DNA from: Bacillota bacterium
GTDB taxonomy: Bacteria; Bacillota; Sulfobacillia; Sulfobacillales; Sulfobacillaceae
NCBI GenBank assembly: GCA_021797515.1
Contig: JAJZZP010000046.1
Location: forward strand, 6,330 to 70,329
Direction of reading: 5' to 3'
Length of the DNA stretch: 64,000 bases
Of this stretch, positions 7,463-35,065 are shown piece after piece. Numbering within the stretch: the stretch's first letter is position 1; every line of letters begins with the position of its first letter. A program made the position numbers and the translations under genes. Under the pieces are notes generated by a model. It had not been told where the DNA came from, ran no database searches, and worked only from the letters and a program-made list of their open reading frames with translations.

Positions 7463-7479
7463 TTATCTAATTAAAATAC

Positions 7480-8587: not shown

Positions 8588-8995
8588 CTAATCTGCTCTT
8601 TGCCCATTTTGATGCGACATTTCCCAGTCAATCTGTTGACGCAATAGATTCCTAATTTTCCTCCTCAATTCATCTCTTTGAGAATTGCCGCAAGACTCCC
8701 GAATTGCAGTAGATAACCACATGTTATAATGTTCAAGTCGATCTTGTGGGCTTTCTTTAGGATCAAAAGTGGGCCTAGGAGGAGTTAACCCCACTTCGAA
8801 GGATAAAGATTGCAGTTGTGCTTCAATGAGGGCAACCTTCTCTTGAGACACCCTATCTAACGCTTTATGTTCAACGGGGATGCTACGCAACACAGCCACC
8901 ATTGCTCGAGCCTGTTCTTGTTCGTAACTTTCCGGCAATGCCGGAATAACTGTGTTTTTTAGAACCTCTACCAGCACATCGACCACATAAGCCAT
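8588..8995 (-). CDS. Hypothetical 135-aa protein in the position LvaB holds after the kinase gene
   Basis: AGGAGG lies 8 nt upstream of the ATG, and the gene starts 15 nt after the kinase stop. No motif was recognised. It is the last gene of the unit. Confidence 0.6.
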   Translation of the reverse strand: MAYVVDVLVEVLKNTVIPALPESYEQEQARAMVAVLRSIPVEHKALDRVSQEKVALIEAQLQSLSFEVGLTPPRPTFDPKESPQDRLEHYNMWLSTAIRESCGNSQRDELRRKIRNLLRQQIDWEMSHQNGQRAD

Positions 8996-9010
8996 CTAGT
9001 TGCCTCCTAT

Positions 9011-10048
9011 CTAGTACCCAATGCTGCCGGCAATCAAGTCCCGCATCAAGGGAAGCCGTTCCCCTTGCCGATAGAGGCGCAAGTCTCTGGTGACGCCCCG
9101 CTTGAAGGCGATTTTCCCCATAGCCGCGATAATATAAAATTTCACATGATGCCAGACTTCAAAATATTGCACGCGCGCCATATCCATCTGTATGCCCATT
9201 AATGACTGATAGGCCTCAATAAATTGTTCAGACGGTATCAAGTATGACAAAAGCGAGCTGTCCATGCGATTTGCTTTGGCAAACACATAGCCAATGTCCA
9301 CATAGGGATCCCCGATTTCCGCCAGCTCCCAATCAAGAATTCCCACAATGTGGTCCCCCGCGTACAGCAAATTTCCTGATCGATAATCACCATGCACCAG
9401 CGTTAAGAGCCCGGTATCCGGCTGGTTTTCCTGAAGCCAACACAGAGCGTCGTCAATGACTGGATCCTCTGTTCCGTCCTTGACGCCTAGATAATCTCGT
9501 TCCATCAACAAAAGCTTCTGCGAGAGATAGGCGCGATAGTTCTCTGGAATTCCCAATGTGGCGCCTATACTTGTGGTTCGCACATTAACCCCATGAATTT
9601 CGGCTAAATACGCCACAAACTCTTGCGCTAGGTTGGCGCGTCGTGGAGCATCGCCAAAAAATTGCCTCCCTTCGCGAGACCATGGTACGATGTTGCGGCC
9701 CGGCAAAAGTTCCATAACAAAAAAAGGCGTTCCCAGCACCGTCGCGTCCGACTCAAACCACAAAGGACGCGGCACAGGAAGCGCCGTATCGTCGGAAAGA
9801 GCCCTTAACGTCTCGTAGTGATGTCGAAGATTCATCCGTTCCAGCGTCAGGCCTGAAGATTCCTTGCGAATCACTATCCGCTCCATTTGAGTCCCACCGC
9901 TTTGCTGCACTTGCAACTCGATCAGATACGTTTCGTCGGACCATCCATCCGACGAGCGATGCAAATTCACCACGCAGATCCGTTCATCAGTACTCCGATG
10001 ATTTTGTAAATATTTCTCTACCGTAGCTGTTAAGGCTGCAGTTGCCAC
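9011..10048 (-). CDS. APH-fold phosphotransferase (LvaA-like / ACAD10-11 kinase-domain-like)
   Basis: The catalytic motifs LVHGDYRSGNLL and ILDWELAEIGDP (HxDxxxxN...DWE) are present. The product is 345 aa. Confidence 0.8.
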   Translation of the reverse strand: MATAALTATVEKYLQNHRSTDERICVVNLHRSSDGWSDETYLIELQVQQSGGTQMERIVIRKESSGLTLERMNLRHHYETLRALSDDTALPVPRPLWFESDATVLGTPFFVMELLPGRNIVPWSREGRQFFGDAPRRANLAQEFVAYLAEIHGVNVRTTSIGATLGIPENYRAYLSQKLLLMERDYLGVKDGTEDPVIDDALCWLQENQPDTGLLTLVHGDYRSGNLLYAGDHIVGILDWELAEIGDPYVDIGYVFAKANRMDSSLLSYLIPSEQFIEAYQSLMGIQMDMARVQYFEVWHHVKFYIIAAMGKIAFKRGVTRDLRLYRQGERLPLMRDLIAGSIGY

Positions 10049-10074
10049 GTGGTCTCAGACGCCTCCCATCCTCA

Positions 10075-11595
10075 TTACGCCTCATCCGATCTCTCCCGCT
10101 CCAGCAATGCGCGCAAATCCTGCTTCTGCACTTTACCCATTGCATTACGAGGCAATGCGGAGACAAATGTCACACGGCGGGGAATTTTAAAATCGGCAAT
10201 ACGATCGCGGAGAAATTCTAACAAATCTTCCCGTGTAATGTCCTGGTTTGGCTTTGCTACGACAAAGGCGTGCGTGTCTTGGCCCAATATTGGATGGGGC
10301 ACACCCACCACTGCGGCTTCCAGTACAGCAGGATGCTCATAGATTATTTGCTCAATCTCAGACGGATAGATATTGAATCCCCCGCGAATCACGATATCTT
10401 TCTTTCGATCCACGATATAGAGAATGCCATCTTCATCCAACCGACCCAAGTCCCCCGTCGCGATCCATCCGTTTCGGTTGATTTTCTCCGTTTCCTCGGG
10501 GTTGTGAAAGTACCCCACCATGGCACTGGGCGTGTGGATATAAATCTCTCCCACTTCCCCCACCGGCAAATCCTTTTCTTCGCTGTCCACGACACGAATT
10601 TCGGTAAACGGAGGGATTGGCCGCCCCACGGCGCCAATCTTCTCCAACGCATATCGATCATCCAGCATGGTACCTCCCGGCCCAGCTTCCGTCAGCCCAT
10701 AAAAGTTAATTAAACCAACGCCCGGAAATCGGCGACGAATCTTATTTATAGCATCGTAGGGCATAATAGATCCTCCGTAGAGGCATAGACGCCACCGACT
10801 CAGCAAGTCGCCGCGGAATTCATCGGATCCTAACAGGAGCAATAACATGGCTGGGACTCCAAAATAAACGGTCGTGCCTAGATTGCGCATCGTACGAATC
10901 GTGTCATGCACATCGAACGCGGGATCAATAACCATGGTAACGCCAGCAAAAAGAGCCGGCAGCAAGTAGGTGTGGCACCCACTTGATGAATAAAACGGGA
11001 TCGCCGTTTGATAGATGTCGGCATCGCTTAAAGAAATAGCGGTAGCGGCGCTAATGGCCAGATGCATCGCGCCGAAATGCGTATGCACTGTGGCCTTGGG
11101 CTTCCCCGTCGTTCCCGACGTAAAGAGAAAGTCCGCCTCATCACCCATGCGCAATTCCCATGGTATGGTTACCGCATCTTGCTCCCCATTCCAGTCCCAT
11201 TCCTCAACCAAATGAACCTCAAACCCATCATCAACCCCGATGTCTGATAAGACACGCTGCCCTTCACGACTGGTTATAATACGTCGGCAGGTGGACTGAG
11301 CCATAATAAATGACAGTTCATGCCCCCTTAGACGGGTGTTGATGGGCACATTCACGGCACCGATTTTATGAACTCCCAAATAGGCAATAACGGTTTCCAC
11401 CGCCCATTGATTATCCAGAAACAGGCCGATTTTGTCCCCTTTGGCCACTCCTTGCGTCATCAGCCAGGCGGCAAAGCGGTTGCTTCTTCGGTCCAGTTGA
11501 CGCCAACTCACCGCAATCGAGCGTTGGGGAGCCAACAAGGCACCAGCGTTAGGACGCATCTGAGCATGATACGAGACCAAATCAGGAATACGCAT
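10075..11595 (-). CDS. AMP-dependent acyl-CoA synthetase (ACS1)
   Basis: The motifs FTSGTTGKPK, YGLTE, TGDLGRLDEDG and the C-terminal GKVQK are present. The start was moved to MRIPDL, which has a GGAGG upstream. Confidence 0.85.
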   Translation of the reverse strand: MRIPDLVSYHAQMRPNAGALLAPQRSIAVSWRQLDRRSNRFAAWLMTQGVAKGDKIGLFLDNQWAVETVIAYLGVHKIGAVNVPINTRLRGHELSFIMAQSTCRRIITSREGQRVLSDIGVDDGFEVHLVEEWDWNGEQDAVTIPWELRMGDEADFLFTSGTTGKPKATVHTHFGAMHLAISAATAISLSDADIYQTAIPFYSSSGCHTYLLPALFAGVTMVIDPAFDVHDTIRTMRNLGTTVYFGVPAMLLLLLGSDEFRGDLLSRWRLCLYGGSIMPYDAINKIRRRFPGVGLINFYGLTEAGPGGTMLDDRYALEKIGAVGRPIPPFTEIRVVDSEEKDLPVGEVGEIYIHTPSAMVGYFHNPEETEKINRNGWIATGDLGRLDEDGILYIVDRKKDIVIRGGFNIYPSEIEQIIYEHPAVLEAAVVGVPHPILGQDTHAFVVAKPNQDITREDLLEFLRDRIADFKIPRRVTFVSALPRNAMGKVQKQDLRALLERERSDEA

Positions 11596-11652
11596 TAACG
11601 CACCTCCGTGAGAACCTTTTGGGATAGGGCCCCTGGCACAGCCTCTCAAAAA

Positions 11653-13839
11653 TTAAGTGCCCATCGGCGCCAGTTCAATTAAACTGGCCGACACCTCGGT
11701 TTGCAGCATGGTGCCGCAATCGGGGCAAATATACTCGACGAGATCCCGACGATAGCCCTCTAGACCCTGGCATTCAATGCCCATGCGGCGCATGGTTCCC
11801 ATCAATTCATGGGACCGGACCACCGTTTGCTTCTTCCACTGCTCATCCTCGCGCATCCCGAGATCCGTACCGCAAAATGCGCAGTAGATTTCCCTGCGTC
11901 CCGGCGTATCGAACACGCCGAGCGGTGCCCGGAAGAATGTCGGCGACTCTTTGGTAAAGTCCTTAAGCGGTTTATGGCCCAGACGCTCTGTGCGCAAGAG
12001 GGTTCGCAGCGCCTCGCTGGCTTGTGCATCAACCCGTTTGGTCTCATCATTGTATACGACTCCATATGCTTCCTTAGCCAGCATGGGCGAAATGTATCCA
12101 TCGCGCAGATCCCGTTCAACCCAGGCCAGTGGGCGCAGCAGCGGGTCCCCAAGGCCTGAGCCTCCTCCCGTTATCTGGCGAAATACGCCGTAAGGCCCCA
12201 ATGTGGTGGATGCTAAGTGATTGCGCAACTGAATCAATCCGGTCACGTCGTCGGGACCGGGCATTCGGCCGTGTTCCCTAATGTACTGGCCAAGGTCAAA
12301 ATTATCCGACTTGAGGAATACAGTAACCGCTCCAGGATATCCCCCCAGCGTTCCATGGGCTGGCATTTGCCCACACGCATTTTCCATGGTGCCCAACAGT
12401 CCCTGACCATGGTTATAGGGTACCCATGCCAGATCCAACCCTTGCCCCCCGCGGTAGAATCCCGGTCCGCCCGAATTGACATGGAGCCGACGATATAAGT
12501 AGAGCATAGGATAAACCCCTTCATTGGTCTCCACTTCGGGAATTCCGTTGTTCAACTGCATGTCGAAAGCCCCCACATCAAGCCCGTCTCCTGTAGCTTG
12601 AGCGCCAATTCCGGCTGAGCCACAGTCAAATACGGGAAATGCAGTATATTCTCCATATTGGTCCAACCCAATCCACGCATTGCCGGGCCAACAATTGTGG
12701 CTTATCGCAGCGACCCGATTGCGGACCCATGGATCCTGGCTCAGCTGCAGAGCTTTTGTGAGCGCTTCAATAAACGCTTTTTCGGTCTTGCCACCCGTTT
12801 CCATATGCCCACACGAGGTAGGCGCCGGAGGCAGTGGATTCACTATGGTGCCGGGATCACCGAACTTAATCTCCATGCTGCGAAACATTCCGGCATTAAC
12901 CGGCACATCGGACCCCAGCATCATCACCAGTACGCCTTCCAGGCAGCCGATGATCGCGCCGGGACCCGCGTTCACAAATCCATTGGATTGGGCTGCTGAA
13001 CCACTCAAATCCACCGTCATGTGATCTTCCGCCACGGTAACGCTGCACATCAGCGGATACAATTCCTGGATCCCATGTCCATCATATTCCACCCATTCTT
13101 GGGACCGATACACGCCGTCGGGTATGGATGCAACGCGCTTGCGGATAAGGTTATCTGCCAATTCCTTATTGACTCCGCAGTACATCTTATAGGTTTCCAG
13201 CCCGTACTTTGCCACCAATTCCTGAACGCGGCGCTCCGCGGTGAGATTGGCCACGATCAAACTTTTAATATCATTAATGACAGGCACCGGCACACGAACA
13301 TTGCGCATAATAATACGCTGAATGTCGCGCAAGATGCGGCCATTTTCCGCAATTCGGATCGCGGGCAGACTTAACGCCTCGGAAAAGACATCATACGCCT
13401 CGGGCGCCCATCCTCCCGGTGACATTCCACCGACATCCAACACATGGGCGTTAGAAAAAGCCCATCCCACCAGTTGCGAGTCGTGATAAATCGGAGAAAT
13501 CACCCCGACATCTCCCTGATGGATGGCGCCGGCCGTGTACGCATCATTGCAAATGAATGCATCGCCGGGACTAATGTCCTCGAGTCCATACTCACGGATT
13601 ACCGCTTGCACCCCGAGTAGTGAGGATCCGAGATGAGCCACAACATATCCCGAAAAAGCTACATGCTCACCGTCCACATCGAAGATTGCCGTGCAAAAAT
13701 CTTGCGCCTCGGTCAGCACCGGCGACCCAGACGTCCGCAACAACATCGTCGCCATTTCCTCTACCACATTCTTCAGACGTTGCTGAATAACCTGCGCTGT
13801 AAAAGCGTCGTATGAATGAACCTGCTCACTGCTGCTCAT
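11653..13839 (-). CDS. Hydantoinase B/oxoprolinase-family subunit (acetone-carboxylase alpha-like) with a C-terminal gamma-subunit-like zinc ribbon
   Basis: The HyuB core reads ...TEAQDFCTAIFD...PGDAFICNDAY...HVLDVGG. The last ~80 aa read YCAFCGTDLG...VEYICPDCGTMLQTEV. The start was set at MSSSEQ, which has GGGAGGGG upstream. Confidence 0.85.
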   Translation of the reverse strand: MSSSEQVHSYDAFTAQVIQQRLKNVVEEMATMLLRTSGSPVLTEAQDFCTAIFDVDGEHVAFSGYVVAHLGSSLLGVQAVIREYGLEDISPGDAFICNDAYTAGAIHQGDVGVISPIYHDSQLVGWAFSNAHVLDVGGMSPGGWAPEAYDVFSEALSLPAIRIAENGRILRDIQRIIMRNVRVPVPVINDIKSLIVANLTAERRVQELVAKYGLETYKMYCGVNKELADNLIRKRVASIPDGVYRSQEWVEYDGHGIQELYPLMCSVTVAEDHMTVDLSGSAAQSNGFVNAGPGAIIGCLEGVLVMMLGSDVPVNAGMFRSMEIKFGDPGTIVNPLPPAPTSCGHMETGGKTEKAFIEALTKALQLSQDPWVRNRVAAISHNCWPGNAWIGLDQYGEYTAFPVFDCGSAGIGAQATGDGLDVGAFDMQLNNGIPEVETNEGVYPMLYLYRRLHVNSGGPGFYRGGQGLDLAWVPYNHGQGLLGTMENACGQMPAHGTLGGYPGAVTVFLKSDNFDLGQYIREHGRMPGPDDVTGLIQLRNHLASTTLGPYGVFRQITGGGSGLGDPLLRPLAWVERDLRDGYISPMLAKEAYGVVYNDETKRVDAQASEALRTLLRTERLGHKPLKDFTKESPTFFRAPLGVFDTPGRREIYCAFCGTDLGMREDEQWKKQTVVRSHELMGTMRRMGIECQGLEGYRRDLVEYICPDCGTMLQTEVSASLIELAPMGT

Positions 13840-13864
13840 AGCTGTCCCCTCCCTAAGCACCTTC

Positions 13865-15952
13865 TCATGCCAACGTTAACGAATAGTTCCGGTACACATC
13901 CATCTCCGCCTCCACTCCGTAGGGCACATAAATGGTCGTATCTCGCGCCTCGATAACAGCCGGACCCGAGATGCGCATTCCCGGCAAAAACCGTTCATCG
14001 CGGAAAATGGAAACGGATTCCTCCGTCTCCCGGTCAGGCAAAAATATTTGGCGATTGCCAATAGAGGCATCGGAGGCATCGGAACCACCCAGCGTGCCTG
14101 CAACAAATCCAGGTTTGGCGGTGCGGCCGACTCCCGTAACCCGTAAATTGAGAATCACAATGAGATTCTCCGCATTTTCCCAGGAAGCGCCCTGTCCATA
14201 GAGACGCTCATACTCCGCAATAAACCGCTGAGCTAGCAGGGCCTTGTCTTCTTCCGTGAGTTCCTTGTGCGGAATCAAAATAGTGAGCTCGTACACCTGC
14301 GTACCAAATTTAAAGTCGCCCTCCCACGTAAGGTCAATATCGCCCGCGCTGAATCCGTTGTCTTGCAACGACGCCGTGACCTGTTGCGAGAGGGTGTCAA
14401 ATACGGTATTGAGTTCGGAAATATTCCCTTTGGCCAAGTTCCAGTTGACGGTCTGCACACTGCTCCGGCTATAGTCAGATAACAATAGTCCTTCAGCGGA
14501 AAAGACCGATGCGTGATGGGGAATGACCACGCGCCGAATTCCCATGTCTTGGGCAATAGCGGCGATATACAGCGCTGAAGCCCCGCCGTATGCCAGCAAT
14601 GCGAAGTCGCGCGGATCATGCCCCCGTTCAATAGTCACAGCACGTACCGCATTGCTCATATTGGACACAACCAAGTCATAGAGACCGGCCGCGGCATGCG
14701 CCGTATCGAGACCCAAAGGCTTCGCAATCTTCTCTTCGATGACTTCCAAAGCGCGTTCTTGGTCCAATGTCAGCGCTCCGCCCAAAAAATAATGAGGGTC
14801 AATGAGATTGATAGCCTCGGCTACATCCGTGACGCAAGGCTCTTGACCGCCACGGCCATAACATGCGGGACCGGGTTCGGCTCCCGCACTTTCAGGGCCG
14901 ACCTCAGGCAACCCCTGATCGGTAACGTGGCAGATACTACCGCCTCCCGCGCCGATGGCGTGGATATCCACCAGGGATAATCCCGTGTCCAGCCGATTTA
15001 CCCGAGCCCGATGAATATGTCCAATTTGATTCTCGACAATGACGGCGGTATCAAAACTGGTGCCGCCCATATCCGCGGTAATAATATTTTTAAGCCCTAA
15101 CAGTTCTCCTAAACGGTTCGCGGCCACAACGCCACCCACGGGTCCCGAGTTTAACAAGTGAATCGGCTTTTGCCGGGCGTCGTCGGTCGATGTAATGCCA
15201 CCGGTAGACTGCATAATACCTACTGGCACAGTCAAGCCCCGGTCTCGAAGACGCTGTTCGAGATTAACGAGGTAGCTTTCCGCCCCGCGTGATGAATAGC
15301 TATTGAGCACTGTAGTGACCATGCGCTCATATTCGCGCGATACCGGGTAAATGTCGGATGAAATCGTGACAAACATCGTTGGGTACAATTCGTGGATAAT
15401 ATTTTTTATGACGCGTTCGTGGTTGGAATTGCGAAACGACCAGAGAAGGCATACTGCCAGTGCCTCAACGTTCTGCACCTCGACTAAATTTCGGATCTGC
15501 CGCGTTGCGTGCTCGACGTCTAGCGGAACGACCACTTCACCCGCGTAATTAATGCGTTCATGTATTTCCACCACATGATCCCGGGATACCAGCTCAGGAG
15601 GCGGAACCTGACTCTGCAAATTAAAGTCGTTGGTTCTTGCGGAACGCGCAATCCGCAGTGTGTCCTTAAATCCCAGCGTCGTCAAAAGGCCCACCTTGAC
15701 GCCTTTTAACTCGGCCAGGGCATTGGTCACAATTGTGGTACCGTTGACAAAGACACGGGTCCTTGACAACAAGTCGCGTACCGACAGCCCCAATTGCTCG
15801 ACAACAGTGTCCAAGGCATTGGTAATTCCTTCGGAATAATCATGCGGCGTGGTAAATGCCTTGGCGCTAAACACCTGCCCCGTTTCGTCTGCCACTACCA
15901 AATCGGTGAAGGTGCCGCCGATATCAACCCCAATACTATAATAATTTAGCAT
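13865..15952 (-). CDS. Hydantoinase A/oxoprolinase-family subunit (acetone-carboxylase beta-like)
   Basis: The sequence MLNYYSIGVDIGGTFTDLV... is followed by a second ATPase motif, ITADMGGTSFD. GGAGA lies 7 nt upstream of the chosen ATG. Confidence 0.85.
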   Translation of the reverse strand: MLNYYSIGVDIGGTFTDLVVADETGQVFSAKAFTTPHDYSEGITNALDTVVEQLGLSVRDLLSRTRVFVNGTTIVTNALAELKGVKVGLLTTLGFKDTLRIARSARTNDFNLQSQVPPPELVSRDHVVEIHERINYAGEVVVPLDVEHATRQIRNLVEVQNVEALAVCLLWSFRNSNHERVIKNIIHELYPTMFVTISSDIYPVSREYERMVTTVLNSYSSRGAESYLVNLEQRLRDRGLTVPVGIMQSTGGITSTDDARQKPIHLLNSGPVGGVVAANRLGELLGLKNIITADMGGTSFDTAVIVENQIGHIHRARVNRLDTGLSLVDIHAIGAGGGSICHVTDQGLPEVGPESAGAEPGPACYGRGGQEPCVTDVAEAINLIDPHYFLGGALTLDQERALEVIEEKIAKPLGLDTAHAAAGLYDLVVSNMSNAVRAVTIERGHDPRDFALLAYGGASALYIAAIAQDMGIRRVVIPHHASVFSAEGLLLSDYSRSSVQTVNWNLAKGNISELNTVFDTLSQQVTASLQDNGFSAGDIDLTWEGDFKFGTQVYELTILIPHKELTEEDKALLAQRFIAEYERLYGQGASWENAENLIVILNLRVTGVGRTAKPGFVAGTLGGSDASDASIGNRQIFLPDRETEESVSIFRDERFLPGMRISGPAVIEARDTTIYVPYGVEAEMDVYRNYSLTLA

Positions 15953-16066
15953 TTCTTTGTCTCCTTCCGTCATGACCCCTTCAACCTCTGCCGCATTCCA
16001 TCAAGTGGTTGCGAGTCGCCCCACTAAAGATCAATAAACATCCAAAATTTTTGGCACTGTGCGCCA

Positions 16067-17281
16067 CTAGCTTTCCGCACCAGGATCCCACGTCTGACCA
16101 TTTTGGTACCGCTTGAGCACTTCTCTGGCCACCAGCATGCGATGCACTTCATCCGGGCCATCATAAATGCGGGCATACCGCGCCTCCCGATACATCCGCT
16201 CCAACGGCATGTCCTCTGTCAGGCCAAGCGCACCGTGCACCTGAATGGCTCGGTCCACCACGTGGTGCAGCATCTGCGCTCCCACGTACTTCACTAAAGA
16301 AACCGCGATACGTGCGTCGCGGCCCGTATCCAATTCATGCGCCGCTTGCAGGGTTAACAAGCGGCATGCTTCAATTTCAGCCACGGAATCCGAAATGAAC
16401 CCTTGAACGAACTGTTTGTCCGCTAACAGAGAGCCGTGAGACTGCCGGGTGATAGCACGTTGGCACATCAGATCAAAAGCTCTTTGGGCCTGGCCAAGCC
16501 ATCGCATGGCATGATAAATTCTGCCAGGGCCGAGGCGGCCTTGTGCAATGCGAAATCCTTCTCCCCGAGGACCAATGAGACTGTCCACTGGCACGCGCAC
16601 GTCTTTCAGGCGCAGCTCGCAGTGGTTTCCCCCTTGATGGCCCATGGTTTTTACCACACGCACGATTTCATATCCCGCCGTGTCAGTGGGAACCAGAATC
16701 ATTGATGCCCGACGATGAGAAACCGCTTGCGGATCAGTAATGCAGAACACGGTAGTAAAGGCAGCTTTATTCGCATATGTCGCAAACCATTTATGTCCGT
16801 TGATGACCCATTGACCGTCTTTGATCTCGGCCGAGGTCTGAATGAGGGTTGGATCGGATCCCGCAACTTCCGGTTCCGTCATGGCCACCGAAGGCCAAAT
16901 CGACCCATCGACCAATCCTGGAATCCATCGGCGCTTTTGCTCTTCCGTGCCATACCGGTATAGCATTAGCGTGTCTTGGGTTTGGTGAGTGCCGAGGGCC
17001 ACCATGGCCGCCTCTGAGCGCCCAATGATTTCATTGACATACACGTAATCTAAAAACGGTAAGCCTCCCCCTCCAATCTCTCGGGGCAGCCCCAGAGCCC
17101 ACAGGCCCTGCTCTTGGGCGCGTTCCTGCACCTGTTTTAACGCCCGTCCATCGTCGTTTCCGTCAATCATCGCGTCTTCAAATGGAATTACCCATGTCTC
17201 GATAAAACTGCGAACCCGCCGGCGTAGAAGAGCAGTTTCCTCCGAGGGTTGAAATCCATGAAATTCCGTTGGTTGTGTCAT
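16067..17281 (-). CDS. Non-canonical acyl-CoA dehydrogenase of the ACAD10/11 / FadE2 / LvaC type
   Basis: The product has an ACAD fold with RLGPGRIYHAMRWLGQAQRA. It has ARIYDGPDEVH where canonical ACADs carry the catalytic-Glu motif (compare [11 protein letters not shown] in the ACAD at 24929-26080). Confidence 0.8.
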   Translation of the reverse strand: MTQPTEFHGFQPSEETALLRRRVRSFIETWVIPFEDAMIDGNDDGRALKQVQERAQEQGLWALGLPREIGGGGLPFLDYVYVNEIIGRSEAAMVALGTHQTQDTLMLYRYGTEEQKRRWIPGLVDGSIWPSVAMTEPEVAGSDPTLIQTSAEIKDGQWVINGHKWFATYANKAAFTTVFCITDPQAVSHRRASMILVPTDTAGYEIVRVVKTMGHQGGNHCELRLKDVRVPVDSLIGPRGEGFRIAQGRLGPGRIYHAMRWLGQAQRAFDLMCQRAITRQSHGSLLADKQFVQGFISDSVAEIEACRLLTLQAAHELDTGRDARIAVSLVKYVGAQMLHHVVDRAIQVHGALGLTEDMPLERMYREARYARIYDGPDEVHRMLVAREVLKRYQNGQTWDPGAES

Positions 17282-17505: not shown

Positions 17506-17535
17506 AACATACCACCCGGATGGTATGTTTGTCTA
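17506..17535 (-). promoter_or_regulatory. Putative promoter with embedded palindromic operator (unit 2)
   Basis: The minus strand reads TAGACA-18 nt-TATGTT. The spacer and -10 element form the palindrome AACATACCA-N6-TGGTATGTT, a perfect 9-bp inverted repeat. It is homologous to 37317-37345. Confidence 0.5.
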
Positions 17536-17659: not shown

Positions 17660-19324
17660 TCACGCTCTTGGCGGTTGGTTGCGGCCAGGATCCGATGTCG
17701 ACTGCTGTCGCTCCTTGAGAATGCGACGCAATATTTTCCCTGTTCCCGTAGCGGGCAGCGAAGCCAGCACCTCAACCTCGCGAGGATATTTATAGTGAGC
17801 CATCCGCTCCTTGGACCAATCGATGAGCTCTTCCGGGCTGAGAGTTTCTCCAGGCTTTGCCACAACGTATGCCTTGACGACCTCTCCATGATACGGATGT
17901 GTTATCCCAATGACGGCTACTTGCGCTATTTTGGGATGATGGATGAGCAGTGATTCCACATCCTCAGGAAAGACGCTGTATCCCGAGACTTTAATCATTT
18001 CTTTGAATCGACCCTGAAAATACAGGTAACCGTCATCATCCATCTTGCCAACGTCTCCGGTCAGCACATACCCGTCTCGCAACGCTGCCGCCGTAGCCTC
18101 GGGTGCGTGCCAATATCCGGCAAACACCCCTGGATTGCGAACGGCAATCTCGCCTTGGGTATTGACAGGGCATTCTTGGCCCGTATCCGGATCGACAATG
18201 CGAATCTGGCAGCCAATAACCGGTTTCCCCACGGTACCCCAGCGAATCGCATCGACCGGCATGGCCGTGTCGCCGGTATGGGTTTCTGTCAACCCATAGG
18301 ACGACTCGTGTATCCGGCACCCGTTGGTCAATGTTTGCCATTGGTGAGCCAAGTCCTCGGTCAAGGGCATTCCAAAACTGGTACAAAGATTATGTTGTAG
18401 CGACGTCAAACGAGGGCTTTTTGTCCCCAGCCGATCGAGAATGGCACGGTTCATCGGAACCACGCTGAGCCACCAGGTGACGCCGTATTGCTCAATGGCT
18501 TGGACTGCCGCATCTGGATCAAAACGATATAGCAGTACTTCGCTGATGCCTTGATAGATGACCAAGTTCAGACCCACCAAGAGACCCGCAATGTGCGACA
18601 AAGGCATAGTCGCCAGGGTCACGTCTTTAGCGGTGACGCCGTTGGAGACGCATCCCGCAGCAGCCTTGAAAATCGCGTTGCGGTAGGTCAGCATGGCTCC
18701 TTTGGGACTGCCGGTAGTGCCCGAGGTGTAGATCATGAGAGAGACTTGGCCAATCTCCAAATCTGGCTCGGGGGGATTGGCCGGGGTAGCCGAAAGTGTT
18801 TCGATCAAATCTGCCACATTATCTAAGTGCACCCGCGATACCACCATTTCGGGAGGAACCGGCAGCGTGGGGGTTTCGGGCAAGAAGTCGCAATAGTCCG
18901 TAGCCACGACAAGCTCCACCGCCGTTTGGTCTCGTATCGATGCCAAGACAGCATAATTGTCATACGACAACACAATCACGCGCGCGCCGCTGTGGTCCAA
19001 TTGATATTGGAGCTCCCACTCTTTGAAGGCAGGGCTCACTGGCGTGACGATGGCGCCTATCTTCTGAGCCCCTAAAAAGGCTATCACGAACTGCGGGCAA
19101 TTCCCTAAATACAACGCCACCCGATCTCCAACCGCAACCCTCTGCGACGTTAAGAAGGTTGCAAAACGGTCGGTCCAATCCTCGAGTTCCCCGTACGTGA
19201 TGATTCGGCCATACCAAATAATGGCCGGCTGACCTGGAGTCTTTTGCGCGTGCATCCGCAAATACTCATGAAGGGGGCGTTCCCCCCACTCGTACAACAT
19301 ATCGGATATGGTTGGGTTTGCCAT
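17660..19324 (-). CDS. AMP-dependent acyl-CoA synthetase (ACS2)
   Basis: The motifs YTSGTTGSPKG, YGLTE, TGDVGKMDDDG and GKILRR are present. AGGAGGAG lies upstream of the start. Confidence 0.85.
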   Translation of the reverse strand: MANPTISDMLYEWGERPLHEYLRMHAQKTPGQPAIIWYGRIITYGELEDWTDRFATFLTSQRVAVGDRVALYLGNCPQFVIAFLGAQKIGAIVTPVSPAFKEWELQYQLDHSGARVIVLSYDNYAVLASIRDQTAVELVVATDYCDFLPETPTLPVPPEMVVSRVHLDNVADLIETLSATPANPPEPDLEIGQVSLMIYTSGTTGSPKGAMLTYRNAIFKAAAGCVSNGVTAKDVTLATMPLSHIAGLLVGLNLVIYQGISEVLLYRFDPDAAVQAIEQYGVTWWLSVVPMNRAILDRLGTKSPRLTSLQHNLCTSFGMPLTEDLAHQWQTLTNGCRIHESSYGLTETHTGDTAMPVDAIRWGTVGKPVIGCQIRIVDPDTGQECPVNTQGEIAVRNPGVFAGYWHAPEATAAALRDGYVLTGDVGKMDDDGYLYFQGRFKEMIKVSGYSVFPEDVESLLIHHPKIAQVAVIGITHPYHGEVVKAYVVAKPGETLSPEELIDWSKERMAHYKYPREVEVLASLPATGTGKILRRILKERQQSTSDPGRNQPPRA

Positions 19325-19341
19325 TGTTCTCCTCCTGATAG

Positions 19342-20895
19342 TTAGAATCCGGTTGGCCAGTTCGCCAATCTCCGTTCACTCTTCCAATGTCCGTTGTCCC
19401 AAATGCTCTTAAGCACCCGCACCAAGAATCGTCTTGTGGTGCGAGGATCAATGACATCGTGAATCAGATATTTTCCCGCGGCAGGATAGGGTCCGACTTC
19501 GAACTCCCACTGACTTAAGAGTTCCTGGCGAAGCTTGTCGCTATCCGGGGCGTCCGCCAGCATCTTCTTGTAGACCACGTTGATGCCTACCTCAGCGCCG
19601 GTAAAGCTGATCTCGGCCGTGGGCCAGGCCACGACAAAATCCGATCCCATGCCAGGACCCGCCATATTGCTGTAGGCAGCGCCGATACTCTTGCGAATGA
19701 CCACCGATATCTTGGGCACGGTTGACCACGCCAGGGCCTGGTTCCACACCATGATTTTCGTCGGGATTTTTTCACGCTCAGCCACACTGCCCACGCGAAA
19801 ACCAGGAATGTCGTGCAAGAAGATTAAAGGAATGTGGTACGAGTCGCACAAACAAATAAACTCGGTAGCCTTGTCCGCTTCATCTGGGCCCGCCGCCCCG
19901 GCTTGGAAAAGCGGCTGACTCGCTATCACTCCGACAGGATGACCGTCTAGCCGTGCGAAAGATGTTAAAAGAGCCCGCCCAAACCCTGCCCGCAGGTTGA
20001 AGACGCTCCCGTGGTCAAAAATCACGCTGATCAGCCTTCGCATGTCGTATGGTCTAGTCCGCTCTGTCGGTACAATGTCCGAGACTTCCTCCACCATGCG
20101 GTCTGGGGCATCATCAGTGGCAAAGCGTGGAGGCTCTGCCTCAGCGTTTTGGGGCAGGTAGCTAAAAACTGTTCGCAAGGCATGAAGACTATCGTCAATG
20201 GTTTCGCCGACATGATCGATTTGCCCTGTAATTTCCCCTTGAATTTTCACCCCTCCGAGCTCTTCCGCCCCGATTCGCTCACCCGTGGCGATTTCCAGCA
20301 TACGGGGGCCTACGGCCGCCATCGCGGTGCCACGGACTTGCGTGACAAAGTCTGAAGAGACCGCCACCCATGTGGGTCCGCCAAAGCTGTCACCTAAAAT
20401 AGCCGTCAACAAAGGACTCTGACGGCCATGTTGGAGCAGATGCATGGGCATCATGCTTTGGCTGATGCCATCGGACCCCATGCCATCGGGAATACGCAGC
20501 CCTCCTCCTTCACCCAAATGAAAGATTGGCAGACCTCGTTTGACAGCAAACTCATCCAACTGCTGCCATTTTCGCAAATGAATACGGCCTTCCGTTCCGG
20601 CCAAGACCTCACGATTGACGGCAATCACCATGACCTGGCGGCCGTCGACACTGGCCAACCCGCCAATTAATCCGTCACCCGGCGACCGATCTTTCATTTC
20701 ACCCACATCTGAGTGACTCAGCACCCCAAATTCATAAAAACTGCCCGCATCGACCAAGCGTTGCACATTGTCGCGCATTGAAACAGGATGTGCCTGCGAT
20801 AATCCCGGTTCCTGTGCATGCGTTGCTGGTCTCGTCGCGCTATAGTCTAGCGCCTGCTGCTTTCGTTTCCCTAAATCGTTGATTAGGTCATGCAT
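19342..20895 (-). CDS. Acyl-CoA carboxylase carboxyltransferase (beta) subunit family protein
   Basis: The 517-aa product has a two-lobed carboxyltransferase architecture (...GEGGGLRIPDG... and ...IFLHDIPGFRVG...). No biotin carboxylase or BCCP gene is present in the window. Confidence 0.8.
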   Translation of the reverse strand: MHDLINDLGKRKQQALDYSATRPATHAQEPGLSQAHPVSMRDNVQRLVDAGSFYEFGVLSHSDVGEMKDRSPGDGLIGGLASVDGRQVMVIAVNREVLAGTEGRIHLRKWQQLDEFAVKRGLPIFHLGEGGGLRIPDGMGSDGISQSMMPMHLLQHGRQSPLLTAILGDSFGGPTWVAVSSDFVTQVRGTAMAAVGPRMLEIATGERIGAEELGGVKIQGEITGQIDHVGETIDDSLHALRTVFSYLPQNAEAEPPRFATDDAPDRMVEEVSDIVPTERTRPYDMRRLISVIFDHGSVFNLRAGFGRALLTSFARLDGHPVGVIASQPLFQAGAAGPDEADKATEFICLCDSYHIPLIFLHDIPGFRVGSVAEREKIPTKIMVWNQALAWSTVPKISVVIRKSIGAAYSNMAGPGMGSDFVVAWPTAEISFTGAEVGINVVYKKMLADAPDSDKLRQELLSQWEFEVGPYPAAGKYLIHDVIDPRTTRRFLVRVLKSIWDNGHWKSERRLANWPTGF

Positions 20896-28783: not shown

Positions 28784-28785
28784 GG

Positions 28786-29538
28786 CTAGTCTTCTGCCTT
28801 ATCGTGAGAAGGCCTGGTTAGTTGATGTTTAGCCAATTCTTCGGTTTTGTTCAGACCATACCGTTCATAAAATCGCTCCGGCACTGCGGTTGGATCCTTG
28901 TAAAAATACCAGGTGCACCAATGGTCGGGAGAAGTCGGGGGATCCAATGGGTAGAGCGGTGCGCCGCTCCATTCTATCGGCATCAGTTCATTCATCAAGG
29001 TGCAGTGTGAACAGTAATAGGGAAATTTTTCCCGGTTAAAGGACCACGGGTGAGGCTTTTCGGTCAACCCGTAACTTTTCGGTGGATCATAGAACCCTTG
29101 GCGCCAAAGTCGCTGCCCACTCCCGCAGGGAGTCAAAGTAAACGTTAATTTCTCTTCGTCCTCGGCCACGGTAAATGATCCCGCATCGGGACCCACCCCG
29201 CTGGTGCTGTGCGCTCTCCATGTTGCAGCCAATGCCATTGCAATCCGGCGTCGATCACGTTTGCCGATTTCGTCGACCGCGTCCTTCCAGACTTTCTCCG
29301 TCATATACCGCAACGCATCGCCCACACTGTCTTCATTAATCGTGTCCCCGATATAGGTTAGCAACGCCGCCAGGGATTCGACCATCAAATCATGAAGAAA
29401 GCCCCATTCCCGTTTCATCTCACCGCTTACTTTAATGGCGTCTTCTAGTTTGCCCTCACGAATCTTCTCAATAATCCGATCCATCGTCGGCTGGCTCATT
29501 TGGTTTAACGTGTCTTCGTCGAACCACATATCACCCAT
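28786..29538 (-). CDS. Conserved-looking hypothetical protein, Cys/His/Trp-rich C-terminal half
   Basis: The 250-aa product reads ..LTPCGSGQRLW..YYCSHCTLMNE..HWCTWYFY... It is tightly packed between ACS3 (2-nt gap) and an SDR (19-nt gap). No family was recognised. The start may be 3 codons downstream. Confidence 0.6.
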   Translation of the reverse strand: MGDMWFDEDTLNQMSQPTMDRIIEKIREGKLEDAIKVSGEMKREWGFLHDLMVESLAALLTYIGDTINEDSVGDALRYMTEKVWKDAVDEIGKRDRRRIAMALAATWRAHSTSGVGPDAGSFTVAEDEEKLTFTLTPCGSGQRLWRQGFYDPPKSYGLTEKPHPWSFNREKFPYYCSHCTLMNELMPIEWSGAPLYPLDPPTSPDHWCTWYFYKDPTAVPERFYERYGLNKTEELAKHQLTRPSHDKAED

Positions 29539-29557
29539 CCTCTCTTGATCCTCGGTG

Positions 29558-32676: not shown

Positions 32677-32730
32677 AATCGTCCTCCCCGATCCCTCTAT
32701 TGGGTTCTGGCGATACACTACCAGGCTACG

Positions 32731-35037: not shown

Positions 35038-35065
35038 AGTGCTCAATTACCTCCTTTCGTCGTCC

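What the first reader, a model, noticed from the sequence alone, without database searches (positions are those of the whole stretch)
8588..17281. lva-like / split ACAD10-11-type module (kinase, small partner, phospho-eliminating ACAD, CoA ligase) sharing one operon with an ATP-dependent HyuA/HyuB pair
**Seen in the sequence.**
- Six co-directional, tightly spaced genes follow their own promoter region.
- The ACAD at 16067-17281 has RLGPGRIYHAMRWLG and YDGPDEVH. It lacks the canonical catalytic-Glu motif that the neighbouring ACAD shows as [11 protein letters not shown].
- An APH-fold kinase (HGDYRSGN, DWE) lies at 9011-10048.
- An unassignable 135-aa ORF follows the kinase directly.
- An acyl-CoA synthetase is also present.

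**Established knowledge.** This combination is what the Pseudomonas putida levulinate operon lvaABCDE uses (LvaA kinase, LvaB small partner, LvaC ACAD, LvaE ligase). Mammalian ACAD10/ACAD11 fuse the same kinase and ACAD functions. Both convert 4-hydroxyacyl-CoA through 4-phosphoacyl-CoA to an enoyl-CoA.

**Inference.** I do not recognise hyuA/hyuB (acetone-carboxylase / oxoprolinase / caprolactamase family) placed between the ACAD and the ligase in this context. The arrangement suggests an ATP-dependent first step feeding the phospho-elimination route. That step could be lactone or lactam ring opening, or ketone carboxylation (for example of an alpha-hydroxy-ketone) yielding a 4-hydroxy or 4-oxo acid. 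The LvaD-type reductase is absent from this unit, but two SDRs lie in the upstream unit.
Basis: partly seen in the sequence, partly recalled or inferred. Interest (0 to 1): 0.8.

Follow-up and report, generated by a model that had tools for sequence, protein, structure and literature searches.

The report
Ketone-carboxylase genes inside lva-like operon
An uncultured Bacillota bacterium carries one operon joining an ATP-dependent ketone-carboxylase-like enzyme and its CoA ligase to the kinase, small partner and atypical acyl-CoA dehydrogenase that remove a 4-hydroxyl group from acyl-CoAs; this gene combination recurs in distant bacteria, has not been described, and its substrate is unknown.

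Summary
The six genes are real, co-directional and tightly spaced. They sit behind a promoter-like site overlapped by a 22-bp palindrome.

- **ACAD:** FadE2/ACAD10-11/LvaC type. It has the catalytic Asp and the Arg/His/Arg phosphate-binding helix of mouse ACAD11.
- **Kinase:** groups with Rv3168 and the ACAD11 kinase domain, not with true aminoglycoside or choline kinases.
- **135-aa ORF:** belongs to a previously unnamed family. A homolog lies directly after the kinase in 71 of 72 related loci, and one protein is a natural partner-kinase fusion. Homology to LvaB itself could not be tested.
- **HyuB:** carries a fused four-Cys gamma domain, reported only for acetone and acetophenone carboxylases. 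A CoA ligase follows it, as in the apc-bal operon.
- **Recurrence:** HyuA, HyuB-gamma, ligase, FadE2-type ACAD, kinase and partner form one tight operon in two distant high-GC metagenome loci, and the part of it held for a relative with 83% HyuB identity is syntenic.
- **Wider context:** the unit is the tail of a ~30-kb regulon with a second HyuAB-gamma-ligase module. Both units share one promoter-operator design.

The chemistry linking the two halves, and the substrate, remain inferred.

The parts
17506..17535 (-). Promoter-like site P2 (TAGACA, 18-nt spacer, TATGTT) with the operator palindrome ACATACCA-N6-TGGTATGT (17507-17528) overlapping the -10 element
   Evidence: A related palindrome lies at the same intergenic position in the 83% relative (L094 6126-6147).
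16067..17281 (-). FadE2/ACAD10-11/LvaC-type acyl-CoA dehydrogenase, the predicted 4-phosphoacyl-CoA phosphate-eliminating enzyme
   Evidence: Best PDB hits are 4hr3 (1.6e-72) and mouse/human ACAD11 (7e-70). It is 44% identical to the C-terminal 146 aa of the ACAD11 chain 8v3u. The equivalents of R626, H634, R637 and D753 are all present.
13865..15973 (-). HyuA-type ATP-binding subunit; likely true start 15952
   Evidence: Pfam Hydant_A_N, Hydantoinase_A and Hydant_A_C. PDB hits: caprolactamase CapA 2.9e-117, N-methylhydantoinase 7e-112, Apc 8.5e-103, Acx 1e-85.
11653..13860 (-). HyuB-type metal subunit with a fused gamma domain; likely true start 13839
   Evidence: Pfam Hydantoinase_B plus Acetone_carb_G. 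The metal tetrad D54/H114/D117/H139 aligns with CapB D41/H99/D102/H124.
11689..11889 (-). C-terminal gamma-like Zn-ribbon domain of HyuB (CAFC...CPDC)
   Evidence: PF08882 scores 26.1 bits against a cutoff of 21. CxxC...CxxC is present in 116 of 116 full-length homologs. Four-Cys gamma subunits are reported for Apc and Acx and absent from hydantoinases (PMC5214803).
10075..11649 (-). Acyl-CoA ligase (Lig4) directly after HyuB; likely true start 11595
   Evidence: AMP-binding and AMP-binding_C domains. An AMP ligase lies within 1-3 genes of HyuAB-gamma in 9 of 11 contexts examined.
9011..10048 (-). APH-fold kinase of the Rv3168-like branch, the predicted hydroxyacyl-CoA kinase
   Evidence: Pfam APH. 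PDB hits are limited to 3ats, 9o56, 9fsg, 3dxp and the ACAD11 kinase domain. The catalytic D221 and N226 are invariant in alignment A2.
8588..8995 (-). Small kinase-partner protein (135 aa) of an unnamed family
   Evidence: Homologous ORFs follow the kinase in L007, L008 and L009. A partner is present in 71 of 72 loci. A six-frame control gave 76 hits among 6,496 ORFs, all kinase-adjacent. P0048 is a natural partner-kinase fusion.
17660..20895 (-). Carboxyltransferase (20895-19342) and acyl-CoA ligase Lig3 (19324-17660) at the end of the upstream unit; travels with HyuAB-gamma elsewhere
   Evidence: In L010 the order is HyuA, HyuB-gamma, CT (72% identity), Lig3 (71%). The CT is PCC-beta / methylmalonyl-CoA-decarboxylase-like.
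27236..31089 (-). SDR1 (31089-30334), SDR2 (30340-29558), a four-Cys protein of unknown family (29538-28786) and ligase Lig2 (28783-27236): candidate reductase and ligase partners of the kinase/ACAD module
   Evidence: In Oceanobacillus salinisoli (L007) the homologs (52%, 48%, 55% and 41% identity) are contiguous with kinase, partner and FadE2-type ACAD.
31096..37159 (-). Second, distant HyuA2 (37159-35066), HyuB2-gamma (35046-32731) and ligase Lig1 (32718-31096) module
   Evidence: Domains. It is 36%, 29% and 35% identical to the first module. The four-Cys tail is present.
37317..37345 (-). Promoter-like site P1 (TTGACA, 17-nt spacer, TATGTT) with a related operator (37318-37339)
   Evidence: The architecture is the same as P2.
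38103..38762 (-). TetR-family regulator, candidate repressor for both operators
   Evidence: TetR_N and TetR_C_24 domains. The weak best NCBIfam hit is the Bacillus FadR type. Its assignment to the operators is an inference.

Best explanation
The six genes encode two coupled activities of one catabolic route for an oxygenated aliphatic ketone. The substrate is not identified. Candidates are hydroxy- or oxo-substituted methyl ketones, such as a 2,5-diketone, a 5-hydroxy-2-ketone or an acyloin.

**Proposed steps**
1. (Inferred from family features.) HyuA plus HyuB-gamma act as an acetone/acetophenone-carboxylase-type enzyme. HyuA uses ATP to phosphorylate the enol of the ketone and to activate bicarbonate. 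The metal site of HyuB joins them into a beta-keto acid.
2. (Inferred from conserved adjacency.) The ligase encoded directly downstream converts that acid to its CoA thioester.
3. (Inferred.) The upstream SDR pair or alcohol dehydrogenase, or chain shortening, leaves or creates a hydroxyl at C4 of the acyl-CoA.
4. (Inferred from residues and synteny.) The APH-fold kinase, working as a complex with the 135-aa partner, phosphorylates that 4-hydroxyl.
5. (Strongest sequence support.) The FadE2/ACAD11-type flavoenzyme eliminates phosphate to give a 2-enoyl-CoA for beta-oxidation, without net redox change.

**Regulation.** The unit is switched on together with the upstream 16-gene unit, through two promoters that carry the same palindromic operator. 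The upstream TetR-family repressor probably binds it.
For: **ACAD**
- It is FadE2/ACAD11 type. The top PDB hits are 4hr3 and ACAD11.
- The R, H, R and D residues shown by mutagenesis to be needed for 4-phosphoacyl-CoA turnover are present (PMC12440821).
- The same residues occur in every kinase-linked ACAD examined and are absent from the neighbouring IVD-type ACAD.

**Kinase**
- Its PDB relatives are Rv3168, 3dxp and the ACAD11 kinase domain. No true aminoglycoside or choline kinase appears.
- Four of the five closest kinase lineages with adequate flanks have a FadE2-type ACAD within 2.5 kb.

**Partner**
- A partner ORF follows the kinase in 71 of 72 loci.
- The six-frame control was fully specific.
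- A natural fusion protein exists.
- The small ORF has a strong ribosome-binding site.

**HyuAB as a carboxylase**
- The four-Cys gamma domain is fused in 116 of 116 homologs.
- Gamma subunits are reported for carboxylases only, and apc is co-operonic with its beta-ketoacid-CoA ligase (PMC5214803).
- The metal tetrad is intact.
- A ligase follows HyuAB-gamma in 9 of 11 contexts.

**Coupling**
- L012 and L015 share only 34-48% identity with the window proteins and are high-GC.
- Each carries HyuA, HyuB-gamma, ligase, FadE2-type ACAD, kinase and partner on one strand, with overlapping or nearly abutting genes.
- L094 is syntenic as far as it is held (CT, ligase, ACAD, HyuA, HyuB-gamma, start of the next ligase); the contig ends before any kinase.
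- Of six kinase-partner-FadE2 lineages with adequate flanks, three carry HyuAB-gamma.

**Co-regulation**
- Two promoters share one operator design, and the operator is conserved in L094.
Against: - No step has biochemical support.
- A ketone carboxylase makes a 3-oxo acid, while the kinase/ACAD pair needs a 4-hydroxyacyl-CoA. The connecting chemistry is undefined, and neither this cluster nor L012 or L015 encodes a thiolase.
- HyuA and HyuB score higher against caprolactamase and N-methylhydantoinase than against Acx or Apc.
- A 64%-identical HyuB-gamma in Neobacillus sits beside an M20 peptidase and a glutaminase.
- The association is patchy. Most HyuB-gamma contexts lack the kinase, and only 2 of 36 long-flank kinase loci have HyuAB.
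- The HyuBs of L012 and L015 are not the closest relatives of the window HyuB.
- The modules also occur apart (L007 and L010).
- The kinase has His-His where ACAD11 has the CoA-contacting R86 and the alpha-C Glu.
- Canonical proteobacterial and actinobacterial kinase-ACAD clusters have no small partner.
- An enoyl-CoA hydratase in the same regulon is reduced to a 35-codon remnant, so this particular copy may be decaying.
Confidence: 0.5

Rival explanations
1. Same coupling, different first step. HyuAB-gamma is an ATP-dependent amidohydrolase or other ring-opening enzyme of the caprolactamase, oxoprolinase or hydantoinase type. It acts on a lactam or related cyclic compound. The ring-opened acid is CoA-activated and, after conversion to a 4-hydroxy or 4-oxo acyl-CoA, enters the kinase/ACAD step.
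For: - The best NCBIfam and PDB matches for both subunits are caprolactamase CapA/CapB, followed by N-methylhydantoinase.
- The Asp-His-Asp-His metal site is shared by hydrolases and carboxylases.
- The Neobacillus homolog (64% identity) lies next to an MFS transporter, an M20 peptidase and a glutaminase.
- Hydantoinase-like lactamases are known in CoA-dependent catabolic clusters, such as the indoleacetate pathway cited in PMC5214803 and PMC8453981.
Against: - The four-Cys gamma domain is universal in this subfamily and is reported absent from the hydrolase branch.
- Lactam opening gives an amino acid, but the cluster has no aminotransferase or deaminase.
- Lactones do not need ATP for hydrolysis.
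- Neighbours elsewhere point to ketone or alcohol metabolism: alcohol dehydrogenases, SDRs, an acetoacetate-decarboxylase-family protein, E1/E2 complexes and sigma-54 MimR/AcoR-like regulators.
Confidence: 0.2
2. The operon is a mosaic with no metabolic coupling. A HyuAB-gamma/CT/ligase module and a kinase/partner/ACAD/SDR module serve different substrates. They have merely been assembled into one catabolic island under a common regulator.
For: - Each module exists alone: L010 has HyuAB-CT-Lig3 without a kinase in the sequence held, and L007 and L008 have kinase-partner-ACAD-SDRs without HyuAB.
- Most contexts of either family lack the other.
- The window cluster shows rearrangement relative to L094, including an ECH remnant.
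Against: - The genes are interleaved, not juxtaposed: ACAD-HyuA-HyuB-ligase-kinase-partner.
- The same six functions recur in a different order, in translationally coupled operons, in two distant lineages.
- Three of six kinase-partner-FadE2 lineages carry HyuAB-gamma.
- The operator is shared.
Confidence: 0.2
3. The kinase-partner pair and the FadE2-type ACAD act on a substrate other than a 4-hydroxyacyl-CoA. Examples are a different hydroxylated thioester or a non-CoA metabolite. In that case the lva/ACAD10-11 analogy holds only at the fold level.
For: - The kinase is in the Rv3168-like branch, is only about 25-30% identical to the ACAD11 kinase domain, and lacks its R86/E87 pair.
- Most members of this kinase-partner family (31 of 36 long-flank loci) have no FadE2-type ACAD nearby.
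- The partner is absent from the experimentally validated Burkholderia-type clusters.
Against: - The ACAD keeps every residue tied to 4-phosphate binding and catalysis.
- The closest kinase relatives are ACAD-linked.
- The tandem SDRs match the Burkholderia arrangement of kinase-SDR-SDR-ACAD.
Confidence: 0.1

Closest known systems
Pseudomonas putida levulinate operon lvaABCDE (Rand et al. 2017, as summarised in PMC6692424 and PMC11342911)
   Same: - A kinase is followed by a small essential partner.
- It has an ACAD10/11-type ACAD that eliminates phosphate from a 4-phosphoacyl-CoA.
- An SDR makes the 4-hydroxyl and an acyl-CoA ligase is present.
- All five functions have counterparts in this regulon.
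   Different: - Gene order differs.
- The SDRs and a second ligase lie in the upstream unit.
- The kinase belongs to the Rv3168-like branch.
- Homology of the partner to LvaB is untested.
- A HyuA/HyuB-gamma pair, a carboxyltransferase, an E1/E2 complex and an IVD-type ACAD are added.
- The regulator is TetR-type, not the sigma-54-dependent LvaR.
Mammalian ACAD10/ACAD11 (PMC12440821, PMC11342911)
   Same: - The ACAD keeps the catalytic Asp and the R...H.MR helix.
- It is 44% identical to the C-terminal 146 residues of the ACAD11 chain.
- The kinase keeps the catalytic Asp and Asn.
   Different: - Kinase and ACAD are separate polypeptides.
- The kinase has an extra small partner.
- The alpha-C Arg-Glu pair of ACAD11 is His-His here.
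- There is no HAD domain.
Acetophenone carboxylase apcABCDE with benzoylacetate-CoA ligase, and acetone carboxylase acxABC (PMC5214803)
   Same: - It has the HyuA-like and HyuB-like core subunits.
- It has a four-Cys Zn-finger gamma element.
- The CoA ligase for the beta-keto-acid product is encoded next to the carboxylase.
   Different: - Gamma is fused to the C-terminus of the HyuB-like subunit rather than being a separate 15-20 kDa protein.
- There is no alpha-prime or epsilon subunit.
- Sequence identity is low, and PDB E-values are weaker than for caprolactamase.
- Linkage to a kinase/ACAD module has not been reported.
Caprolactamase CapAB of Pseudomonas jessenii (PMC8453981, PDB 6yra)
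   Same: - It is the best sequence match for both subunits.
- The metal tetrad is identical.
- It uses ATP.
   Different: - CapAB has no gamma domain.
- CapAB has no adjacent CoA ligase.
- Its product is an amino acid that is handled by an aminotransferase.

Membership tests
ACAD10/ACAD11/LvaC-type phospho-eliminating ACAD | Catalytic Asp (mouse ACAD11 D753) in the DGPDEVH motif, in place of the canonical Glu | tested here: met
   YDGPDEVH aligns with ADGPDEVH of the ACAD11 chain 8v3u. The defining residue is taken from PMC12440821.
ACAD10/ACAD11/LvaC-type phospho-eliminating ACAD | Phosphate-binding helix residues R626, H634 and R637 (the 'HCMR' motif) | tested here: met
   GRLGPGRIYHAMR supplies R, H and R at the aligned positions. 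The Cys of HCMR is Ala here.
ACAD10/ACAD11/LvaC-type phospho-eliminating ACAD | Closer to ACAD11/FadE2 than to conventional ACADs | tested here: met
   4hr3 scores 248 bits and ACAD11 235-239 bits. The next chains, unnamed putative ACADs (4n5f, 4u83, 4m9a), score 194-210 bits, and the first named conventional ACAD (SCAD, 2vig) scores 180. No tree was built.
ACAD10/ACAD11/LvaC-type phospho-eliminating ACAD | [quoted passage not shown] | not testable with these tools
   This needs an enzyme assay.
LvaA / ACAD10-11 kinase domain | APH-fold kinase with the catalytic Asp and Asn (ACAD11 D220 and N225) | tested here: met
   In HGDYRSGN, D221 and N226 align with the HGDFKLDN motif of ACAD11. Both are invariant in alignment A2.
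LvaA / ACAD10-11 kinase domain | CoA-contacting R86 next to the alpha-C Glu, and R176 | tested here: not met
   The aligned positions of R86 and E87 are His-His in the window kinase, and R/H-Q/H in its relatives. R176 could not be placed reliably.
LvaA / ACAD10-11 kinase domain | Genomic linkage to an ACAD10/11-type ACAD | tested here: met
   They share an operon here. The linkage also holds in L007, L008, L012, L015, L024, L086 and L089.
LvaA / ACAD10-11 kinase domain | Direct sequence grouping with P. putida LvaA | not testable with these tools
   No LvaA sequence could be obtained. The paper PMC5705400 is not held, and no Pseudomonas hit appeared in the plasmid searches.
LvaB-type small kinase partner | A small protein encoded directly after the kinase and acting with it | tested here: met
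   The gap is 15 nt and the ribosome-binding site is strong. A partner follows the kinase in 71 of 72 loci. A natural fusion, P0048, exists. Physical interaction itself was not tested.
LvaB-type small kinase partner | Sequence homology to LvaB (PP_2792) | not testable with these tools
The partner HMM finds nothing in the Burkholderia or Georgenia clusters, and the annotated Pseudoalteromonas cluster shows no small ORF next to its kinase.
Ketone carboxylases of the hydantoinase/ketone-carboxylase family (Acx, Apc) | Alpha (HyuA-like) and beta (HyuB-like) core subunits with an intact metal tetrad | tested here: met
Ketone carboxylases of the hydantoinase/ketone-carboxylase family (Acx, Apc) | Gamma element with four conserved Cys (Zn finger), absent from hydantoinases and oxoprolinases | tested here: met
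   PF08882 scores above its cutoff in both HyuB paralogs. CxxC...CxxC is present in 116 of 116 homologs. The criterion is taken from PMC5214803. Here the element is fused rather than separate.
Ketone carboxylases of the hydantoinase/ketone-carboxylase family (Acx, Apc) | Sequence clusters in the Acx or Apc branch rather than the Hyd branch | tested here: inconclusive
   For HyuB the scores are caprolactamase 187 bits, Apc 171, N-methylhydantoinase 161 and Acx 131. HyuA gives a similar order. No tree was built.
Ketone carboxylases of the hydantoinase/ketone-carboxylase family (Acx, Apc) | ATP- and bicarbonate-dependent carboxylation of a ketone to a beta-keto acid | not testable with these tools
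   This needs an enzyme assay.
ATP-dependent hydantoinase / oxoprolinase / caprolactamase (Hyd branch) | Two-subunit alpha-beta enzyme without a gamma element | tested here: not met
   A gamma-like four-Cys domain is present.

The most novel reading that the evidence does not exclude
HyuA/HyuB-gamma with its ligase, together with the kinase-partner pair and the FadE2-type ACAD, form a dedicated and previously unrecognised pathway. An ATP-dependent, biotin-independent carboxylation of a hydroxy- or oxo-ketone feeds directly into phosphorylation-driven removal of a 4-hydroxyl. The same work would establish the ~150-aa partner family as an obligatory subunit of a large class of bacterial small-molecule kinases.
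Probability: 0.35. Interest if true: 0.8.

Novelty: new variant of a known kind. Interest (0 to 1): 0.62.

Why it matters
**Pathway discovery.** The phospho-elimination route for 4-hydroxy acids was defined only recently, in the lva operon (2017) and ACAD10/11 (2024-25). What feeds it in most bacteria is unknown.
- Ketone carboxylases with a fused gamma domain form a large family. At least 372 clusters at 90% identity were found, and I found no characterised member.
- A conserved operon-level link between the two gives both families a testable metabolic context. It points to a class of oxygenated ketones as natural substrates.

**The partner protein.** It is unnamed, follows the kinase in 71 of 72 loci, and occurs once as a fusion. 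That makes it a concrete candidate for a required kinase subunit, with possible implications for Rv3168-like kinases in mycobacteria.

**Practical use.** Such a route could matter for the bioconversion of levulinate, gamma-valerolactone or diketones.

Tried and rejected
1. **LvaA/LvaB comparison failed.**
   - The Rand et al. paper is not held.
   - Plasmid tblastn searches with the ACAD and with a Burkholderia kinase returned no Pseudomonas lva operon.
   - The Burkholderia, Georgenia and Pseudoalteromonas clusters I fetched have no small partner.
2. **Word-indexed search with the 135-aa ORF was misleading.** It found only two close homologs. The family became visible only through synteny and an iterated HMM.
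3. **Structure prediction of the four-Cys protein failed.** The single-sequence AlphaFold model of the 250-aa protein at 28786-29538 had pLDDT 39.7. It was unusable, so no fold search was run. Weak triosephosphate-isomerase hits for its Oceanobacillus homolog (E about 0.03) were dismissed, because the sequence shows a four-Cys motif rather than TIM motifs.
4. **Genome-collection scan with HyuB gave little.** It returned only two loci.
5. **The Rhodococcus plasmid locus with the best ACAD match has no HyuAB**.
6. **Rfam at gathering threshold found nothing in the window**.
7. **Literature searches found no prior description.** Searches combining hydantoinase or acetone carboxylase terms with levulinate, lactone or lva terms turned up nothing on this linkage. 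A search for Rv3168 gave no functional lead.
8. **Substrate ideas considered but not adopted.** These were levulinate carboxylation to 3-oxoadipate, and methyl isobutyl ketone feeding the IVD-type ACAD. Nothing discriminates between them.

Full report
**1. What is in the sequence**

Six ORFs lie on the minus strand between 17281 and 8588.

| Gene | Coordinates | Size | Assignment |
|---|---|---|---|
| ACAD | 17281-16067 | 404 aa | acyl-CoA dehydrogenase |
| HyuA | 15973-13865 | 702 aa | HyuA-type subunit |
| HyuB | 13860-11653 | 735 aa | HyuB-type subunit with C-terminal Acetone_carb_G match |
| ligase | 11649-10075 | 524 aa | AMP-forming acyl-CoA ligase |
| kinase | 10048-9011 | 345 aa | APH-fold kinase |
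| small ORF | 8995-8588 | 135 aa | no Pfam or NCBIfam match |

- Gene calls on identical metagenome contigs, and the alignment to an 83% relative, place the likely true starts at 15952, 13839 and 11595.
- Spacers between genes are short. The small ORF has an AGGAGG site 7 nt before its ATG.
- Upstream is a 378-nt gap. It holds a promoter-like TAGACA-18-TATGTT whose -10 element is overlapped by the perfect palindrome ACATACCA-N6-TGGTATGT.
- Downstream lie about 1.1 kb without ORFs. Then comes a separate proBA operon with its own promoter and a T-box leader.
- The host is an uncultured Bacillota bacterium. The same locus occurs in several MAGs.

**2. The ACAD**

- Its best solved relatives are a mycobacterial FadE2-like protein (4hr3, 1.6e-72) and mouse/human ACAD11 (about 1e-69). 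The next chains, unnamed putative ACADs, score 194-210 bits and named conventional ACADs 180 bits or less.
- The ACAD10/11 study identifies D753 as the catalytic base. It shows by mutagenesis that R626, H634 and R637 are needed to turn over 4-phosphoacyl-CoA. These residues are shared with LvaC and absent from other ACADs (PMC12440821).
- All four are present here, in GRLGPGRIYHAMR and YDGPDEVH. They are also present in every kinase-linked ACAD I collected. The neighbouring ACAD has none of them.
- That neighbour is an isovaleryl-CoA dehydrogenase type. Its [11 protein letters not shown] is the IVD form of the motif, not a display of the MCAD-type catalytic Glu.

**3. The kinase**

- PDB relatives at E below 1e-3 are only Rv3168 (3ats), two unnamed APH-like proteins, 3dxp and the ACAD11 kinase domain. 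None of the many true aminoglycoside or choline kinase structures appears.
- The catalytic Asp and Asn are conserved.
- ACAD11 has the CoA-contacting R86 next to the alpha-C Glu. This kinase has His-His there, so it belongs to a different, Rv3168-like branch.
- Its closest named relatives (38-40% identity) are in Oceanobacillus.
- In Oceanobacillus salinisoli the order is kinase, 146-aa ORF, Zn-ADH, FadE2-type ACAD, SDR, SDR, unknown protein, binding protein, ligase. The last genes are homologs of the window's SDR1 (52%), SDR2 (48%), the 250-aa unknown (55%) and Lig2 (41%).
- This ties the upstream SDRs and a ligase to the kinase/ACAD function.
- Burkholderia cenocepacia has kinase-SDR-SDR-ACAD. 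Related Burkholderia enzymes were shown to replace the ACAD10 domains (PMC11342911).

**4. The 135-aa ORF**

- A direct database search found only two close homologs.
- However, the ORFs that follow the kinase in three relatives align with it. They share an N-terminal V.K..IIP.L...EQA.AM..VL motif and a C-terminal R.LLR.Q motif. The pairwise BLASTP E-value is 1e-7.
- I scanned metagenomes with a kinase alignment and obtained 80 loci. I then iterated an HMM of the downstream ORF.
- Of 72 loci with at least 450 nt after the kinase, 71 have a homologous ~150-aa ORF starting within a few dozen bases of the kinase stop.
- As a control, the final model was run on all 6,496 six-frame ORFs of every locus and the window. 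It hit 76. Of these, 74 lie directly downstream of a kinase, one is the window ORF, and one lies directly upstream of a kinase.
- One database protein (P0048, 502 aa) is a natural fusion of partner (residues 1-150) and kinase.
- The ORF is therefore a real gene for a conserved kinase partner. This is the behaviour reported for LvaB, a 12-kDa protein that pulls down with LvaA and is essential (PMC6692424).
- I could not obtain LvaB to test homology. The validated proteobacterial-type clusters I examined have no such partner.

**5. The HyuAB pair**

- Both subunits are about equally distant from caprolactamase, N-methylhydantoinase, acetophenone carboxylase and acetone carboxylase. Caprolactamase scores highest.
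- The Asp-His-Asp-His metal site is intact.
- The distinctive feature is the C-terminal domain of HyuB. It matches Acetone_carb_G above the Pfam cutoff and carries CxxC...CxxC, as does the second paralog.
- All 116 full-length proteins among the top 120 homologs have the same four Cys.
- Weidenweber et al. report that the four-Cys gamma subunit is present in Apc and Acx and that hydantoinases lack it. They also report that the apc genes sit in one operon with the CoA ligase for the beta-keto-acid product (PMC5214803).
- Here a ligase follows each HyuAB-gamma pair directly. A ligase lies within one to three genes in 9 of 11 contexts examined.
- This favours a ketone carboxylase whose product is CoA-activated, though it does not prove it.

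**6. Is the combination more than an accident?**

- A relative with 83% HyuB identity (L094) is syntenic over the part held: CT, ligase, ACAD, HyuA, HyuB-gamma and the start of the next ligase, where the contig ends. It keeps the palindrome in the same gap.
- More telling are two metagenome loci with the best and fourth-best kinase matches. They are high-GC and share only 34-48% protein identity with the window. Both carry the same set on one strand, with overlapping or abutting genes.
  - L012: HyuA, HyuB-gamma, SDR, ligase, FadE2-type ACAD, QOR-like dehydrogenase, CoA-transferase, kinase, partner, ECH.
  - L015: FadE2-type ACAD, kinase, partner, ligase, unknown protein, HyuA, HyuB-gamma, TetR.
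- Of six kinase-partner-FadE2 lineages with adequate flanks, three carry HyuAB-gamma.
- Against this, the link is patchy.
  - Only 5 of 36 long-flank kinase loci have a FadE2-type ACAD, and only 2 have HyuAB.
  - HyuB-gamma relatives at 38-64% identity sit in other contexts.
  - The two modules also exist apart (L007, L010).

**7. The wider regulon**

- The unit is the tail of a ~30-kb block on the same strand. In order, the block holds:
  - TetR, HyuA2, HyuB2-gamma, ligase;
  - SDR, SDR, the four-Cys unknown, ligase;
  - Zn-ADH, IVD-type ACAD, E1-alpha, E1-beta, E2;
  - an ECH remnant, a PCC-beta-like carboxyltransferase, ligase.
- Its promoter (TTGACA-17-TATGTT at 37345-37317) carries a related operator in the same position as the promoter at 17535-17506. 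Both units are therefore probably controlled together.

**8. Most likely mechanism, and its limits**

- The proposed route is as follows.
  1. An oxygenated ketone is carboxylated by HyuAB-gamma at the expense of ATP.
  2. The beta-keto acid is ligated to CoA.
  3. After reduction or shortening, a 4-hydroxyacyl-CoA is phosphorylated by kinase plus partner.
  4. The ACAD eliminates phosphate to give a 2-enoyl-CoA.
- Only the ACAD assignment rests on residue-level evidence. The carboxylase call rests on the gamma domain and the ligase adjacency. The link between a 3-oxo product and a 4-hydroxy substrate is not explained, and no thiolase is encoded.
- I put 0.5 on this model, 0.2 on a lactam or ring-opening first step, 0.2 on a non-coupled mosaic, and 0.1 on a different kinase/ACAD substrate.

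**9. Novelty**

- Each half belongs to a known kind.
- The conserved operon-level union, the fused-gamma carboxylase-like subfamily in this role, and the near-universal unnamed kinase partner are, as far as the held literature shows, undescribed.
- I rate it a new variant of a known kind.

Noticed in passing
window 7267-7460 (-): A T-box leader scores 80.4 bits, below Rfam's gathering score of 93 but with E = 2e-17. It is followed by a terminator hairpin at 7279-7256, directly upstream of proB/proA (7219-5203). The whole-window scan at gathering threshold missed it.
   Followed up: yes
window 7510-8587: About 1.1 kb between the small ORF and the proBA promoter has no ORF above 75 aa and no Rfam match. 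A half-operator (GGATGGTATGTTA) starts 2 nt after the small ORF's stop codon. No clear intrinsic terminator follows the operon.
   Followed up: partly
window 21005-21109 (-), between E2 and the carboxyltransferase: Only the last 35 codons of an enoyl-CoA hydratase remain (71% identical to residues 225-259 of the L094 protein). The relative L094 has a full ECH and a lipoate-protein-ligase-like gene at this position, so this lineage has a deletion. The 184-aa ORF listed here is not a real gene. An operator half-site lies at 21194.
   Followed up: yes
window 28786-29538 (-); L007 15495-16592: A 250-aa protein has no Pfam or NCBIfam match and four conserved Cys (PCGSGQRL, YYCxHCT, CTWYF). It is 55% identical to an Oceanobacillus ORF that also follows a tandem SDR pair next to kinase/ACAD. 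It may be a metal- or Fe-S-binding companion of the pathway. The AlphaFold single-sequence model was unusable.
   Followed up: partly
window 24929-26080 (-) and 21577-24939 (-): An isovaleryl-CoA-dehydrogenase-type ACAD lies next to an E1-alpha/E1-beta/E2 2-oxoacid or acetoin dehydrogenase set, with no E3. E1/E2 sets, carboxyltransferases and Zn-ADHs also accompany HyuAB-gamma in Neobacillus bataviensis (L097), Baekduia soli (L096) and L095.
   Followed up: partly
P0048 (Logan SRR30681585; L103 10001-11509): This 502-aa protein is a natural fusion. Its N-terminal 150 residues are homologous to the small partner, and an APH kinase domain follows. Its neighbourhood has SDRs, an aldo-keto reductase, a long ACAD and an aldehyde dehydrogenase, but no FadE2-type ACAD was noted.
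   Followed up: partly
L098 (Alicyclobacillus MAG) 2600-13410: The arrangement is HyuB-gamma, HyuA, a second HyuB-gamma, three SDR/epimerase genes, a ligase, then methylcitrate-cycle genes. Two HyuB paralogs flank one HyuA, which suggests heteromeric variants of this enzyme family.
   Followed up: no
L102 (Pseudoalteromonas plasmid) 4874-9472; L101 (Georgenia) 7992-10916: Other bacterial FadE2-ACAD/kinase clusters pair the kinase with a histidine-phosphatase-family gene or directly with an SDR, and have no small partner. Partner-dependent and partner-independent kinase types therefore coexist.
   Followed up: partly
window 40240-50789 (-): An FAD oxidoreductase (DAO family) and a CCG/4Fe-4S protein are followed by a complex-I/Mrp-like membrane module. 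That module has a NuoD/NiFe-hydrogenase large-subunit-like protein, NuoH-like protein and two antiporter-like subunits. It appears unrelated to the finding.
   Followed up: no
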